Source: Styela clava
Taxonomy: Eukaryota
Length of the DNA: 64,000 nt
Direction: 5' to 3'
Assembly (NCBI RefSeq): GCF_964204865.1
Contig: NC_135251.1
Coordinates: 23,560,001 to 23,624,000, forward strand
The position numbers are program-made. Of the stretch, positions 1 through 54,000 are shown in pieces (within the stretch, counting starts at the first letter, position 1; each line of letters starts with the position of its first letter).

Positions 1-3000
1 TTCAGATGCATGATGTGACAACAATACTCTATAAATAGTCTATTTAAAAGGCGTGCGATCGATTTGTACAATTGGCGTATGCATTCTGTTATTGATATTT
101 ACAGATTTTGCTTTAAAAATTGCTTCACAAATTTTTGAATAATATTCTACACCAGAGACATAAGTAAAAACCTCCTTATCGTCCGATGTTTTAAGGTCCG
201 TCATCGGATGTTTGTGGTAATCCCATCTTCCGAACGACAGATCTATGCCAGAAACAAATGCGATCGACTGATCGACAATTATCAGTTTCTCGTGATGAGA
301 CCAAAATAGGTTATTTTCTGAAAAGAACAGAAATAAATTTAAAATATTGATGGGCCATATTACTAGATTCTCAATATTCAAAGGCTCAAATTCACTGCAA
401 TAATATTACAGCAATGAGAGTATTCTACATCAATGTCCTTTTGGCGGGAATACAAAACTCTGAAATAAGTCTGGAAATAGACTGATGACTGATGTGTTAC
501 CCGAAAATCTCATAGGATACATATATATAGTGTGTATGCTTATTTCTTACGTTTCTGTTATATTTTAAGACTACTCATCGAGAAATCATTGTACAACTCA
601 CCCAACCCTAGCCCACGGTGAATTAATACTCGGATATTTTCCTCATTGAGACTTTCCAGAATATATTTTGCATAATGTTCTCCGAGATCCACAACTACTC
701 CCGGACCATTGTAAAGCAATATGTATATCTTGACGCCGGATGCCTTGTAAAATTGCATTAGCTCAAGTTAATATCTTATTATTGCATATTTTTTCACGAG
801 ATTTATCGCTATTGTTATCCTTTCCCAGAACCCGGAGTGAAAGAAAATAGAGAAGTTAGAGGAAACGGAATCCAGTTTTATTTTTATAATATAGTACGAA
901 CTAACCGCTTTCTTTTCTATGATAGTTTTCAGAAGCCATTCATCTTTTAATTCACCCTTGCGCTTCAAGAATATAGCAGGAGAAAACGTCCAACCGGTAA
1001 TAAAGATTTCACTTTTTGCACTTTCCAGTGCATCTGCTACAGCAGAGAAGAAATCACAACCATCAACAAGCCTACAAAGAAATTATTCAAATATTTATTA
1101 TCAGCCACCTGGTAGAAAATATCATGGAAACGTTAGCATACTTAACCAAAATCTTTCCGCGACCACGGCAAAATAAAGCATGAAATAGAAGTGACAAGAT
1201 AAAGATGCGGGTCTGTAGGTTCAAAACCAAACCCGAATAGAAAAACTCGAGTGGATTCAAATAACTCATTTAATTACCATTAATGAAAATGTTAACAACT
1301 ATACCAATGTGCAACTGAAGGTCTTGCAGGTGCAAAGCTTCCGTGCACATTTCCCATTGCACCTCCGAATTCAGATATCACATTTTCCATGTTACTTTCG
1401 ATGCTATCATGCCAATTGATCGCCTCTTCTGAAGTCATACATTTTAAATATATTCTAGAAAATAATTTGAGAAGGAAAATAACATATATATAGTTTATTC
1501 CACTAACTAACTCAACCATGTTATACTAAATTGCATAAAGCCTGGTCAAGTGTGAGAGTGCGGAAACTTCTCATAAAAAATAAAATAGATAAAAATGAAA
1601 CTCACTGCACAGAAGTGTACAAAAAGTTGCGCCAATAATCCGGTTCGAACATACTCAAAATATGAATATATGTGTATATGAATTTATTAGTATAAACACT
1701 TCAACAGTTGGCGAGGACTAATCTTTATCACCTATAGACATAGCAGAATATTTATAACTCACGTATGAGAAGAATTTTTGAGCTTCAAGAAAACCCCTTT
1801 CTCGACTACTACAGATGATACTCCATCAAACAGAAACACTCCCTCGACATATTGCTTTGTTTCATCAAGGTACATCAAAAACTTATCTTTAAGCACAGCC
1901 CATCTGTAAAGTTGTGAGAAATTGAAATTTGAGTTGTTGTATGTCATGTTTCATTTGAGTATTAGATTGGGAACTTCCTACCGTAGTTTATACTTATACA
2001 TATCACTATCAGAAATTTATATTTTTTTCCTAATTTAAACGTCAATGAATAATAAACGCGGTACGTTATTATACAAAAGCGACGATTTTTGCAATAACCA
2101 TAACAGTATTTCCGAATATTTTCCTAGAATTTGACGTAACAACAAGTTAGTCCGCTGCAATAAATTCTGCTTGCCATATAAAGCAATAACAACAAACATT
2201 TGTACTGCAGTAGGGGAAGGTGGGGCACGTTGGGACATGGCGCACAGGAATATCAGCTCTCACACTAATACTATTCGGGATCCGGTCCGCGGTTTGATGT
2301 TTCAATCCGCCCTTCGGTGAGTTACAATGTCCCCGCAAACGGACAGCGGACGGGTAGAGCGACGCAAGCTATGAGGTGAAATTGGTTTTGGGGGGTTGAA
2401 ACTAAAAATTCACCGTTCCAGTTTTTTCTTTTTTCTAACTTAGCCTTTCCAACGTGACAAACCACCGTCTGATATTTTTCAGCTTTAGTCCACTGTGAAA
2501 TATTTATAACGTTGGCGAGTGGATGGGCCTTCTGAATTTCGCCGTGGGATGATCTGAAGATATTTGTTGATTATGGGGAACAATGGACCGGGGTTCAGTG
2601 GGACATGCCCTACATGGCACAATTCGACAGTGTTTGATACAACAAGTTCTTAGAGACCTAGAGATGCGTTATATTTTTATGTAACATTATGGTATCTTTC
2701 AACTCATGGTCCAATATGAAATATATTCTAGAATCAAAAATATTTCCAGATTTAGATTCGGATTAGAAAATAATTTAATTTGTAAGCGAATTTTTTGGTG
2801 AAATATCTGAAATATTTCGGTTGAACATTGATTTCAAAAATCTTAAATCTTCAAATTTGAAGTCTCCCTGTTCTTTAGACGATTATGCTGATTAATTGCT
2901 CATTTTCAAGGGCATACTTCGTTGAATTTTAACAGAATGACCCATTGTGCCCCAGGGTCTGTCCGAATGTGCCCCACAAGTGGGGTACAGTGGGACACTT

Positions 3001-51000: not shown

Positions 51001-54000
51001 CTTGATTGCTGAAAATGAAAAAGAAGTTTTTATTGGTGCAAGTGAAGAATTTAAAATATAATTTATTTCAAGTTAATTCAATTCCTCTTCAAATCTAACG
51101 ATTCCTAAAAATTCCCAAAAATTAGAAATTTCATAACTCATTATGAATCGATTCAAATATTCAGGTCATTTTGAACATCTTTATGATGGCAAATTTTTCA
51201 ATTTAGTACTTTTAATTATTTCTAATATTAAGCATTGAATATGACTAACTTCAAATCTATTCAACCATTTGATTCACTTTGTACATCCCTAAAAGACAGC
51301 TTTCAAAATAAAATTGTTCCCAAATATTCCTGAACTCAAAGGTTTGTCTGAATATAATCTATTTTTAATCAATTTGAAAATATCTTTGATTTGAACATCC
51401 TTTGTAAAAACATGCTTTTGACTTATTTTTTTTATTTATATAAATTCATTTATTACTCATAACAGATTCGCTTTGCTTATCTTTATCTGTATCCAGATCT
51501 CAGTAATAAATAGCCCAACTTACCAAAAGCACTTGTAGTAGAAGGATAAGTGGGACTATCAGGTTCTTCCATTCCTGGCGATGGCAATGGAAGAACTTCA
51601 TATCCCTCACCATCGTCTGACATCACTGTATCCAAGCGATCAAATGAAGGGCGGTTCCTTGCCCTCGCATTAACTCGATCTTGTGCCATATTGTCTTAAG
51701 GTGATCAAATACACTTACATATGCTGAGTAAACTAACCCAAACATTAATGATTAAAAACCACGCTGGTTTGCCAATATTGTCATTATTGAACTACAATAG
51801 GCTACGAGTCTTCATTGCCAATTTACCTGTGAATGATAAGGTACACTTAGAACCATAATTAACAAAGATATGTCGAATGTTTAGGTAAACGAAATTTAAA
51901 TGTTTTTAGTATTAATTTTATATGGTGCCTTTTTTATTCACGCCTTCCACCCAAAGCAAGAACCTGTGCAAGCCGCTACTGATATCAGGCAATGTGTAAA
52001 GAGATATTATTTTTATCAAAAAGTTAAGGTTCTTTGATGTTGAATCACGAATGGCCAAAGTCAAACAGTTTTCTCTAGTTTTTGAGAAATTGAATGCAGG
52101 TCATAATGCTCAATATGATACGATAAGTTTTCAAATAAAACTATCCTAATTAGTTAATTAATTTTTAAACGATTTCCAATATTTCAATCGTTGTGGCTTG
52201 TGGCCAACTTCATGTGGAATAATATATATAAAATAGGTCAGGGCTATGTTATAGTGATTTTGTAGCACAACGTATTATTCGAGTAATATAAAATAAAAAA
52301 GAACTCTATATATCTATAACGCATTCGGAGGCTCTTTGAATCCTCACCAATTACTATATAGGTCATAACATATTTCATATCTGCAATGTGTGTTGGGAAA
52401 ATTTCCTTTCAATCAAGCAGCTGCACAGACAATTTCCTTCATTTGCATAAAATAAACAAAGAATAATAACATGAATCATTGCAGATATGTATTATTACAA
52501 TCATGTTCTATTCCAACAATGCTTTTTCTATTTTTTCCTTCACAAGTAATTTTGGACTATTTCCGGAAAGGAAATGACCTCATAACTATTCCACAATTAG
52601 TTAATTTCCTCTATAGACATTAGAAGATAGAAATTGTAATTCCATATTTTATTTTGTTACGGTGGGTATTTACATTCCTGCTATCATATTATTTAAAGAC
52701 TAACAATATTGCAATAGGCATTGCATTGAATGTAAAAATTTATTATATCGAATTCAAAACATACCTTATTACACTATGTTCAAATTCAGAGCATATGAAA
52801 TCTCAGTAAAGGCTGATAATTAATTTTTGACAAGATGCAACTAGGGAACACATTCATTCGAATAACTTTTGATAATGCAAAACTTAAAAGATTTGAAATT
52901 AAGGTATTCTCAAAACAATTTAATGGCAAACTCCAGAAGCAGTTAGTTTGGTAATTGGTCTCAAAGCTACGAAAGATAAAAGCAGTGCTTCCCAACAGAG
53001 AAGGATTTCGCTGTTTCAGAAGGAAAAATTTCACTTTGCATTTGTATGTAGTATTACTAATATTCTTTTTTTACTTACTCTTTTACTCTATCATTGTAAT
53101 TAACTATTCAAACAGTATAAAATAGTACAAATCATTAGTATCACTAGCTAATGATTCAATAAAGACTGAACTAACACTAATAAAGAGAGGAATAGTAAGA
53201 GAGGAATAAAGAGGTATACACAGGAAGGAATTTGATGAAAAATGTTGGGAACCACTTAATTGAAGGATGTTGTATAAAAAATTTTGATTGATTATTTGAC
53301 CTGATTGATTTTTCATTGTATATTTATAAAAACATAACAATAGGTTTTATTTATCAATGACTTATAATTAGGGTAGGCCTACATAGGAGCTACTGTGTTA
53401 TTTTATTTATGAAAACATTCTATTTATAGCAATGACTGTAAAGCTAAACCTCTTACAGTCTTAAAAATACGCTACTTTGCAAATTTTGTATTTCAATGTA
53501 TCTTGTTCTCCAAATTTATTCTAGTAATTTCCAAATGATGCACACCTTCGCTTGGAAATTTTTCTATACAAACAGCCATTTATACATTGAATGTTTTTCT
53601 GTTTATGGAATTAAAAGATATTGCAAAGAACATGAAAAGAAGGCATAATTTTTTCACATACAGAAACCAGGAAACCTTTCATTGATATACTAAGTTTATC
53701 TGAATTGCAGCATTGTTTGTCTGTTTACTTACTAGTACTGAAAAATGTACCCTATAATTAAATAATGACATAAATTATTACAAAACCCTTAATTGACCAT
53801 TCCACATTCTGACATATGTTTTCCATTGTTGATCGCCATGTACAGATGTATGTACTGATGTAATACCAAAGTCTTATAAAACATATGAAATGTTTCCATC
53901 CATTCATCCTGCAATTAATAAAATATACGATTTCGTTAACGACGACTTCTGTAATTGAGTTGTTCTAAACTTCTGCGTGGATCTTCAACCTAAACTACGC

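What the first reader, a model, noticed from the sequence alone, without database searches (positions are those of the whole stretch)
172..51689. Tandem three-gene phospholipase D array with asymmetric evolution: one conserved parent and two compact, remodelled daughters
Seen: three same-strand PX-PH-PLD genes with matching intron phases and several identical exon lengths (66/59/166/142 nt in all three; 111/155/103 nt in B and C). C spans 28.8 kb and is canonical. B spans 9.7 kb, and A and B are strongly diverged yet have no stops or frameshifts in the reconstructed exons. Known: many invertebrates have one classical PLD and vertebrates have PLD1 and PLD2. Inference: a lineage-specific PLD expansion producing catalytically intact enzymes with rewired regulation, possibly a specialised lipid-signalling or lipid-processing system. 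More copies may lie left of the window.
Basis: partly seen in the sequence, partly recalled or inferred. Interest (0 to 1): 0.72.

Follow-up and report, generated by a model that had tools for sequence, protein, structure and literature searches.

The report
Three tandem phospholipase D genes, sea squirt
A sea squirt (Styela clava) carries three neighbouring phospholipase D genes, one large and conserved and two compact, fast-evolving copies that keep the catalytic site but have lost regulatory parts; this is an ordinary though neat case of gene duplication and divergence.

Summary
The window is Styela clava (tunicate) DNA. It holds three PX-PH-HKD phospholipase D genes, all on the minus strand and all already in NCBI as "phospholipase D1-like".

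- **Gene C:** 26 exons, 51689→22911.
- **Gene B:** 23 exons, 17545→7807.
- **Gene A:** only its first 431 of 884 residues are in the window (11 exons, 5800→172).

C is canonical. A and B are sisters (100/100) on a path about four times longer than C's. Both lack the N-terminal extension, the PX signature motifs, a PH insert and the ~100-residue inter-HKD loop. They keep both HKD motifs and 84–87% of near-invariant positions.

Their nearest relative among 1.84 billion representative proteins is C, and the ML tree gives (C,(A,B)) 94/99. However, an AU test does not reject A/B as an older subfamily (p 0.36). No vertebrate or other tunicate sequences could be used.

Synonymous sites are saturated, so dN/dS cannot be estimated. 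C is CpG-depleted (o/e 0.60) while A and B are not (~1.0). This suggests a broadly expressed, methylated parent and unmethylated, restricted daughters.

Verdict: new members of a known family; modest interest.

The parts
22911..51689 (-). Gene C: canonical PX-PH-HKD phospholipase D (database protein P0001, 1093 aa, 'phospholipase D1-like isoform X3 [Styela clava]'). It has 26 exons. ATG at 51689, stop codon TAG just after 22911.
   Evidence: Exact mapping and 25/25 GT-AG introns. Pfam: PX 40.8 bits, PLDc x2, PLDc_2. Keeps 132/135 near-invariant positions. Human PLD1 707 bits against PLD2 589.
7807..17545 (-). Gene B: compact, diverged PLD paralogue (P0023, 894 aa). It has 23 exons. ATG at 17545, stop TGA after 7807.
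   Evidence: Exact mapping, 21 GT-AG plus 1 GC-AG introns. Pfam: PLDc x2, PH 29 bits, no PX hit. AlphaFold2 model pTM 0.82; Foldseek 6U8Z TM 0.91.
172..5800 (-). Gene A, 5' part only: residues 1-431 of P0024 (884 aa) in 11 exons, covering the PX-like region, PH and HKD1. The rest lies left of the window.
   Evidence: Exact mapping, 10/10 GT-AG introns, and a GT donor follows exon 11 at 172. Pfam on P0024: PLDc x2, PH 28.4 bits, PX 17.8 bits, which is below the 21.6 cutoff.
34300..37082 (-). C exons 13-16 (105, 49, 23 and 118 nt). They encode most of the inter-HKD loop and have no counterpart in B. The aligned A protein lacks the loop too.
   Evidence: Exon table; three-protein alignment, columns about 540-670.
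37612..37793 (-). C exon 12 with the HKD1 motif. Its paralogues are B exon 12 (12892-13043) and A exon 11 (172-317).
   Evidence: Pfam PLDc 41.2, 35.0 and 29.4 bits on the single ORFs. The C ORF gives human PLD1 E 2.7e-19.
26545..26676 (-). C exon 22 with the start of the HKD2 motif. Its paralogue is B exon 19 (9615-9752).
   Evidence: Pfam PLDc 22.9 bits (C ORF) and 19.0 bits (B ORF); alignment.
49994..50122 (-). C exon 3, start of the PX domain. Its paralogues are B exon 3 (16539-16661) and A exon 2 (4935-5057), where the PX signature residues are replaced.
   Evidence: Pfam PX 22.6 bits on the C ORF only; motif comparison.
19500..20500 (.). Boundary between a CpG-undepleted domain (genes A and B, 1-19500, o/e 1.00) and a CpG-depleted domain (gene C and its downstream 3 kb, o/e 0.55-0.60).
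   Evidence: 1-kb windows step from 1.38 to 0.27 at 20 kb. Mann-Whitney p 5.5e-7 on 19 against 29 windows.

Best explanation
This is a head-to-tail array of three classical (PX-PH-HKD, PLD1/PLD2-type) phospholipase D genes in the tunicate Styela clava.

Gene C is the conserved counterpart of the single animal PLD. It is large, carries the inter-HKD loop and lies in a CpG-depleted domain. A copy of it arose by tandem duplication downstream. That copy evolved fast, shed the N-terminal extension, the PX lipid-binding signature, a PH insert and the four loop exons, and shrank its introns. It then duplicated again to give A and B.

Both duplications are old: synonymous sites are saturated and A and B are 45-46% identical. 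Purifying selection has nevertheless kept both genes open and kept the catalytic core.

Inferred, not shown:
- A and B are active phosphatidylcholine-hydrolysing PLDs, still membrane-anchored through the PH domain and the basic cluster of the catalytic domain.
- They have been uncoupled from inputs that need the loop (ARF-like GTPases in human PLD1) and from canonical PX-phosphoinositide binding.
- They are expressed in a restricted or inducible way, whereas C is the broadly expressed housekeeping enzyme.
For: Shown:
- Three intact genes with matching exon structure.
- HKD motifs in all three.
- A+B are sisters at 100/100, and (C,(A,B)) has 94/99 in the careful ML tree of 26 rows x 888 columns. 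The 36-row quick tree gives SH-aLRT 99 for the same clade.
- With an A+B profile, C is the best non-self hit among 1.84 billion representatives (866 bits against 744 for the next; 9940 hits at E<=1e-3).
- C has the highest catalytic-domain identity to B and A among 24 compared rows (48.8/47.9% against at most 45.2/44.4%).
- Near-invariant positions retained: C 132, B 117, A 113 of 135.
- pN 0.33-0.42 is well below pS 0.73-0.82 in all four exon-wise comparisons.
- The B model has PX-like, PH and catalytic folds (pTM 0.82) and matches human PLD1 6U8Z (TM 0.91, 41% identity).
- A and B have lost the RRY / LPRFP / R..LE.YL PX motifs that C keeps and lack the loop.
- CpG o/e is 1.00 for the A-B block against 0.60 for C, with TpG+CpA 1.12 against 1.25.

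From papers (passages seen):
- The PLD1 loop is needed for ARL11/ARL14 stimulation and is attenuated in PLD2 (PMC13545423).
- In Ciona, body methylation marks ubiquitously expressed genes and spares tissue-specific ones (PMC3827831).
Against: - The AU test does not reject a tree with A/B outside C plus the 17 other animal-type rows (delta lnL 6.0, p-AU 0.356).
- Only 1 alignment column is uniquely shared by A, B and C, no more than for other rows (0-3).
- C's margin in identity is small, about 4 points.
- The tree holds no vertebrate and no other identified tunicate sequence. 18 of its 26 rows are unnamed.
- There are no expression, methylation or enzyme data for S. clava. The methylation reading rests on a Ciona analogy.
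- A and B have changed 13-16% of otherwise near-invariant positions, so altered or lost activity cannot be excluded.
- The PX fold in the B model may be partly imposed by the canonical sequences in the alignment.
Confidence: 0.68

Rival explanations
1. A and B represent an old PLD subfamily that split from the C-type gene before the animal groups sampled here diverged. The subfamily survives next to C in tunicates and was lost or missed elsewhere.
For: The AU test does not reject this topology (p-AU 0.356). No unique A=B=C signature residues were found. Synonymous saturation and 43% identity to C show great age.
Against: The best ML tree joins them to C (94/99). Long-branch attraction would pull A/B away from C, not towards it. 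No protein outside S. clava scores closer to the A+B profile than C does among 1.84 billion representatives. The genes are adjacent in tandem with the same orientation and exon structure.
Confidence: 0.13
2. A and B are co-orthologues of vertebrate PLD2 and C is the orthologue of PLD1. On this view the PLD1/PLD2 split began as a tandem duplication before tunicates and vertebrates parted.
For: The parallels are striking: a compact, loop-less, faster-evolving gene beside a large, loop-bearing, conserved one. Mouse PLD1 is 147 kb against 17.1 kb for PLD2, and PLD1 is the closer one to the insect PLD (PMC6435507, passages seen). My tree has no vertebrates, so it cannot separate this rival from a tunicate-only duplication.
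Against: A, B and C all score higher to human PLD1 than to PLD2 (B 514 against 464, A 516 against 460, C 707 against 589 bits). This is a weak test between fast-evolving proteins. Recalled, not from a call: human PLD1 (3q26) and PLD2 (17p13) lie in a well-known paralogous chromosome pair from the vertebrate genome duplications, which post-date the tunicate split.
Confidence: 0.06
3. A and/or B are no longer phosphatidylcholine phospholipases. They may be pseudo-enzymes, enzymes with another substrate, or untranscribed gene relics.
For: 18 (B) and 22 (A) of 135 near-invariant positions are changed, and 6 carry the same new residue in both. The segment just before HKD1 (RHPDH in C) is rewritten. 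No expression data were seen.
Against: Both HKD motifs and the surrounding core are intact. The reading frame stays open across 23 exons with canonical splice sites despite divergence to synonymous saturation. pN is well below pS. The catalytic fold is confidently predicted. A neutral relic of that age would not stay open.
Confidence: 0.1
4. The array is an assembly artefact, for example collapsed or duplicated haplotypes.
For: None found.
Against: The copies are only 43-46% identical in protein. They differ in exon number, intron size and CpG content.
Confidence: 0.01

Closest known systems
Vertebrate PLD1 (human structures 6U8Z, 6OHR)
   Same: Gene C shares the PX-PH-HKD1-loop-HKD2 architecture and scores 707/696 bits to the human PLD1 catalytic domain. 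A and B also score best to PLD1. B's model superposes at TM 0.91 with 41% identity.
   Different: A and B lack the ~100-150-residue inter-HKD loop, the N-terminal extension and the PX signature residues. C is pre-duplicate relative to the vertebrate pair, which is an inference.
Vertebrate PLD2 (human structures 6OHM, 6OHO)
   Same: Like PLD2, A and B are compact, loop-poor, faster-evolving paralogues encoded by much smaller genes than the conserved partner (PMC6435507 and PMC13545423, passages seen). B's model superposes at TM 0.90-0.91.
   Different: There is no sign of orthology: scores to PLD2 are lower than to PLD1. PLD2 keeps a recognisable PX domain (recalled). B has no Pfam PX hit and A's is below the cutoff. 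The resemblance is most likely convergent.
Single invertebrate PLD (e.g. Drosophila Pld; the beetle and bivalve proteins used here)
   Same: C behaves like these. It groups among them in the tree with an ordinary branch length and shares up to 50% identity.
   Different: Invertebrates are described as having one such gene (PMC6435507, abstract). S. clava has three in tandem.

Membership tests
Classical eukaryotic PX-PH-HKD phospholipase D (PLD1/PLD2 type) | Two HxKxxxxD (HKD) catalytic motifs | tested here: met
   Pfam PLDc is matched twice in each of P0001, P0023 and P0024 (71.5, 61.9 and 60.2 bits; cutoff 21.9). The H, K and D of both motifs are invariant in the three-way alignment. A's HKD2 lies outside the window and is known only from the database protein.
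Classical eukaryotic PX-PH-HKD phospholipase D (PLD1/PLD2 type) | N-terminal PX domain | tested here: inconclusive
   C: 40.8 bits (cutoff 21.6), met. A: 17.8 bits, below the cutoff. B: no hit. The homologous exons are present. B's model has a beta-beta-beta-plus-helices topology at residues 52-168 with pLDDT about 66-86. The conserved PX motifs are replaced in A and B.
Classical eukaryotic PX-PH-HKD phospholipase D (PLD1/PLD2 type) | PH domain after PX | tested here: met
   Pfam PH gives B 29.0 and A 28.4 bits (cutoff 25.1). C gives 20.5 bits, below the cutoff, and carries an insert there. B's model has seven strands plus a helix at 185-286 with pLDDT 86-92. The paired cysteines (CC) are kept in all three; their role as palmitoylation sites is recalled.
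Classical eukaryotic PX-PH-HKD phospholipase D (PLD1/PLD2 type) | Catalytic-domain fold of human PLD1/PLD2 | tested here: met
   The B model against 6U8Z gives TM (target) 0.91, rmsd 3.8 and 41% identity. Against 6OHO_A it gives TM 0.91. A and C were not modelled.
Classical eukaryotic PX-PH-HKD phospholipase D (PLD1/PLD2 type) | Phosphatidylcholine hydrolysis / transphosphatidylation activity, PIP2 dependence | not testable with these tools
   Indirect only. The basic cluster after the HFIQxWNF motif is kept in A, B and C; its role in PIP2 binding is recalled.
PLD1-type (loop-bearing) subgroup | Long inter-HKD loop | tested here: not met
   For A and B the loop is absent. About 100 residues present in C are missing, and C exons 13-16 have no counterpart in B. 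For C the feature is met.
Vertebrate PLD2 orthology group | Closer to PLD2 than to PLD1 | tested here: not met
   B gives 514/495 (PLD1) against 464 (PLD2). A gives 516/508 against 460. These are pairwise scores only. A tree with vertebrate sequences was not made.

The most novel reading that the evidence does not exclude
A tunicate has independently re-created the vertebrate PLD1/PLD2 division of labour by tandem duplication. One gene is large, germline-methylated, conserved and loop-bearing, and stays open to GTPase control. The other type is compact, unmethylated and fast-evolving, has no loop, and has a PX module that no longer binds phosphoinositides in the canonical way. These compact copies would be constitutively active or differently targeted, and expressed in restricted tissues or conditions. 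The sharp CpG step at 20 kb would then mark a methylation-domain boundary that formed between parent and daughter after duplication.
Probability: 0.3. Interest if true: 0.5.

Novelty: new member of a known kind. Interest (0 to 1): 0.3.

Why it matters
Animals outside vertebrates are usually described as having a single classical PLD (PMC6435507, abstract). A three-gene tandem array in a close invertebrate relative of vertebrates is an exception.

It offers a natural replicate of the PLD1/PLD2 split. The outcome is the same in outline: a conserved large gene beside a compact, loop-less, faster gene. The origin is probably independent. This could help separate what the loop, the PX domain and gene size contribute to PLD regulation.

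The neighbouring parent and daughters also differ sharply in CpG depletion. That makes the locus a small natural test of how gene-body methylation is assigned after duplication.

None of this changes how PLDs are understood. The genes are already in public annotation.

Tried and rejected
- **Short unnamed hits.** Unnamed hits of 1100 aa or less were left out of every analysis because they could be human-derived PLD1/PLD2. They include the best non-Styela hit P0025 (945 aa) and P0041 (933 aa). This leaves the PLD2-orthology rival and the age of the duplication open.
- **Exon searches.** Single-exon searches with the A and B exons found only their own proteins (1 of 30 and 1 of 17 candidates). 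The tool itself calls this weak evidence, and it even missed C.
- **dN/dS.** Nei-Gojobori counts were summed exon by exon. pS is 0.73-0.82, so the correction is undefined in 3 of 4 comparisons.
- **Signature residues.** The count gave no support either way.
- **Joined model.** A search with a joined model of my own exons was left out. Exon candidates were searched one by one. Whole proteins were taken only from the database (P0001, P0023, P0024).
- **Papers.** 'Styela clava' + 'phospholipase D' gave 4 papers, none about these genes by title or abstract start. PLD1+PLD2+Ciona+phylogenetic gave 0 papers. A Styela clava genome / gene family expansion search gave nothing relevant among the 10 papers listed.
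- **Other features.** No tRNA, Rfam family or tandem repeat was found in the window. No Pfam hit came from 56 other ORFs in the flanks and intergenic stretches, nor from 17 of 18 long ORFs.
- **Collections.** The bacterial/archaeal genome collection was not searched because it cannot hold this gene. The closed metagenome and viral collections were not touched.
- **Supplements.** Supplementary Table S3 of PMC6435507 lists the taxa of their PLD tree. It could not be opened, and it may show whether tunicates were included.
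Full report
**What the window is**

The 64-kb window has no N, 33% G+C and short open frames. A single exon candidate of the rightmost gene matched 'phospholipase D1-like isoform X3 [Styela clava]' at 100% identity. The window is therefore tunicate DNA, not human.

I left out the step of joining exons into a spliced model for a search. For whole proteins I used only the three database records that those exon searches returned.

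**Checking the observation**

A six-frame self-comparison shows two collinear sets of paralogous coding pieces, all on the minus strand, with E down to 4e-23. Pfam on single ORFs finds:
- the first HKD motif in three places;
- the second HKD motif in two places;
- a PX start in one place;
- weak PH hits in two places.

The three database proteins map back letter for letter:

| Gene | Protein | Length | Exons in window | Coordinates | Span |
|---|---|---|---|---|---|
| C | P0001 | 1093 aa | 26 | 51689→22911 | 28,779 bp |
| B | P0023 | 894 aa | 23 | 17545→7807 | 9,739 bp |
| A | P0024 | 884 aa | 11 (residues 1-431 only) | 5800→172 | cut by window edge |

The rest of A, including its second HKD motif, lies beyond the left edge.

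Exons of 66, 59, 166 and 142 nt recur in all three genes. Exons of 111, 155 and 103 nt recur in B and C. Phases are identical. All introns are GT-AG except one GC-AG in B. No PLD-like piece lies outside these models (0 of 121 HSPs).

**Anatomy**

C has a Pfam PX domain (40.8 bits), two PLDc motifs and a long stretch between the HKD halves. Four of its exons (37082-34300) encode that stretch and have no counterpart in B.

A and B are each 43% identical to C and 45-46% identical to each other. They share the same four losses relative to C:
- the N-terminal extension;
- part of the PX insert;
- an insert in the PH domain;
- about 100 residues of loop.

In the PX region, C keeps the motifs conserved in the 23 non-Styela sequences (RRY..F..LH, LPRFP, R..LE.YL). 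A and B have replaced them. B has no Pfam PX hit and A's is below the cutoff. That these residues bind phosphoinositides in PX domains is recalled, not tested.

The PH domain scores above the cutoff in A and B, and the paired cysteines are kept in all three.

Of 135 alignment columns identical in at least 22 of the 23 other sequences, C keeps 132, B 117 and A 113. At 14 of these columns both A and B differ, and at 6 they carry the same new residue. Much of the remodelling therefore happened before A and B split.

An AlphaFold2 model of B was built with a 26-row alignment (mean pLDDT 76, pTM 0.82). It has a PX-like beta-beta-beta-plus-helices module, a PH module and a catalytic core. The core superposes on human PLD1 (6U8Z, TM 0.91) and PLD2 (TM 0.90-0.91).

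**Origin**

A profile of A+B was run against 1.84 billion representative proteins and found 9940 hits at E≤1e-3. After A and B themselves, the best hit is C (866 bits). The next best is an unnamed 945-aa protein at 744 bits.

Names for these hits could not be obtained. I used five named proteins (three beetles, two bivalves) plus unnamed hits longer than 1100 aa, which cannot be a human PLD. I left shorter unnamed hits out.

Tree results:
- A quick 36-row tree gives (C,(A,B)) with SH-aLRT 99.
- A careful 26-row tree (888 columns, LG+C20+F+G4 PMSF) gives (A,B) 100/100 and (C,(A,B)) 94/99.
- The A/B path is 0.96+0.93 against 0.47 for C.

Against this:
- An AU test of the tree that shuts A/B out of C plus the 17 other animal-type rows does not reject it (ΔlnL 6.0, p 0.356).
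- Only one column is uniquely shared by A, B and C.
- C's lead in catalytic-domain identity is about four points.

All three proteins score higher to human PLD1 than to PLD2, which gives no hint of PLD2 orthology. Pairwise scores between fast-evolving proteins are a weak test, and no vertebrate sequence could be put in the tree. From recall, human PLD1 and PLD2 lie in a chromosome pair attributed to the vertebrate genome duplications, which would make the resemblance convergent.

**Selection and age**

Nei-Gojobori counts were made exon by exon and summed.

| Measure | Range over four comparisons |
|---|---|
| pN | 0.33-0.42 |
| pS | 0.73-0.82 |

Synonymous sites are saturated, so dN/dS cannot be estimated. 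The duplications are old, and frames that stay open over 23 exons at such divergence imply constraint.

**CpG contrast**

| Region | CpG observed | CpG expected | o/e | TpG+CpA o/e |
|---|---|---|---|---|
| A-B block (1-19500) | 551 | 551.8 | 1.00 | 1.12 |
| Gene C | 452 | 751.7 | 0.60 | 1.25 |

GpC is about 1.1 in both. The depletion holds in C's exons (0.52) and introns (0.61). B's values are 1.03/1.04 and A's are 0.87/0.90.

The step is sharp at about 20.0 kb (1.38 to 0.27). A Mann-Whitney test on 1-kb windows gives p 5.5e-7.

In Ciona, body methylation marks ubiquitously expressed genes and leaves tissue-specific genes unmethylated (PMC3827831, passages seen). By analogy, C is likely a methylated, broadly expressed gene, and A and B are likely unmethylated, restricted ones. 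This is an inference; no S. clava data were seen.

**Mechanism proposed**

The human PLD1 loop is required for stimulation by ARL11/ARL14 and is attenuated in PLD2. PX and PH mediate membrane binding (PMC13545423, passages seen).

A and B keep the catalytic core, the PH domain and the basic cluster after HFIQxWNF. They lack the loop and the PX signature. The most likely reading is that they are active PLDs that make phosphatidic acid but answer to different inputs than C. Activity and regulation are inferred, not shown.

**Comparison and novelty**

Invertebrates are described as having one classical PLD. Mouse PLD1 is 147 kb against 17.1 kb for PLD2, and PLD1 is closer to the insect gene (PMC6435507, abstract and passages seen). 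That text does not mention tunicates, and its supplementary taxon list could not be opened.

The S. clava array mirrors that asymmetry. Searches for papers on these genes found none. The genes themselves are already annotated.

I rate this as new members of a known family: a tidy case of asymmetric divergence after tandem duplication, of modest interest.

Noticed in passing
window 56718-58877 (+): One uninterrupted 719-aa open frame carries the PHTF1/2 N-terminal domain (PF12129, 178 bits, E 1.1e-52). It lies about 5 kb from the start of PLD gene C and is transcribed divergently from it. The single long exon is unusual in a region of short exons.
   Followed up: partly
window about 19500-20500: Sharp step in CpG observed/expected, from 1.38 at 19001-20000 to 0.27 at 20001-21000. 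The step lies between B's start (17545) and C's stop (22911). The depleted domain runs about 2.9 kb past C's stop codon.
   Followed up: partly
window 36001-37000 and 38001-39000: Two 1-kb patches inside gene C's introns, near the loop exons, are not CpG-depleted (o/e 1.17 and 0.99) within an otherwise depleted gene. Cause unknown; an internal unmethylated island or a young insertion are possibilities.
   Followed up: no
window 14429-14578 / 14188 (B intron 9) and 11688-12235 (B exons 14-15): B intron 9 uses a GC donor. B exons 14 and 15 (119+117 nt) correspond to the single C exon 18 (239 nt, 29493-29731), so one intron was gained in B or lost in C.
   Followed up: partly
window 35261-35309 and 34944-34966: Gene C's loop includes micro-exons of 49 and 23 nt. 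The database record is 'isoform X3', so alternative splicing of the loop is plausible.
   Followed up: no
window 18162-18400 and 38695-38790: A short inverted pair (18162-18306 minus / 18259-18400 plus) and a related piece in a C intron (18188-18283 ~ 38695-38790, 56% over 32 aa) look like copies of a small repeat element.
   Followed up: no
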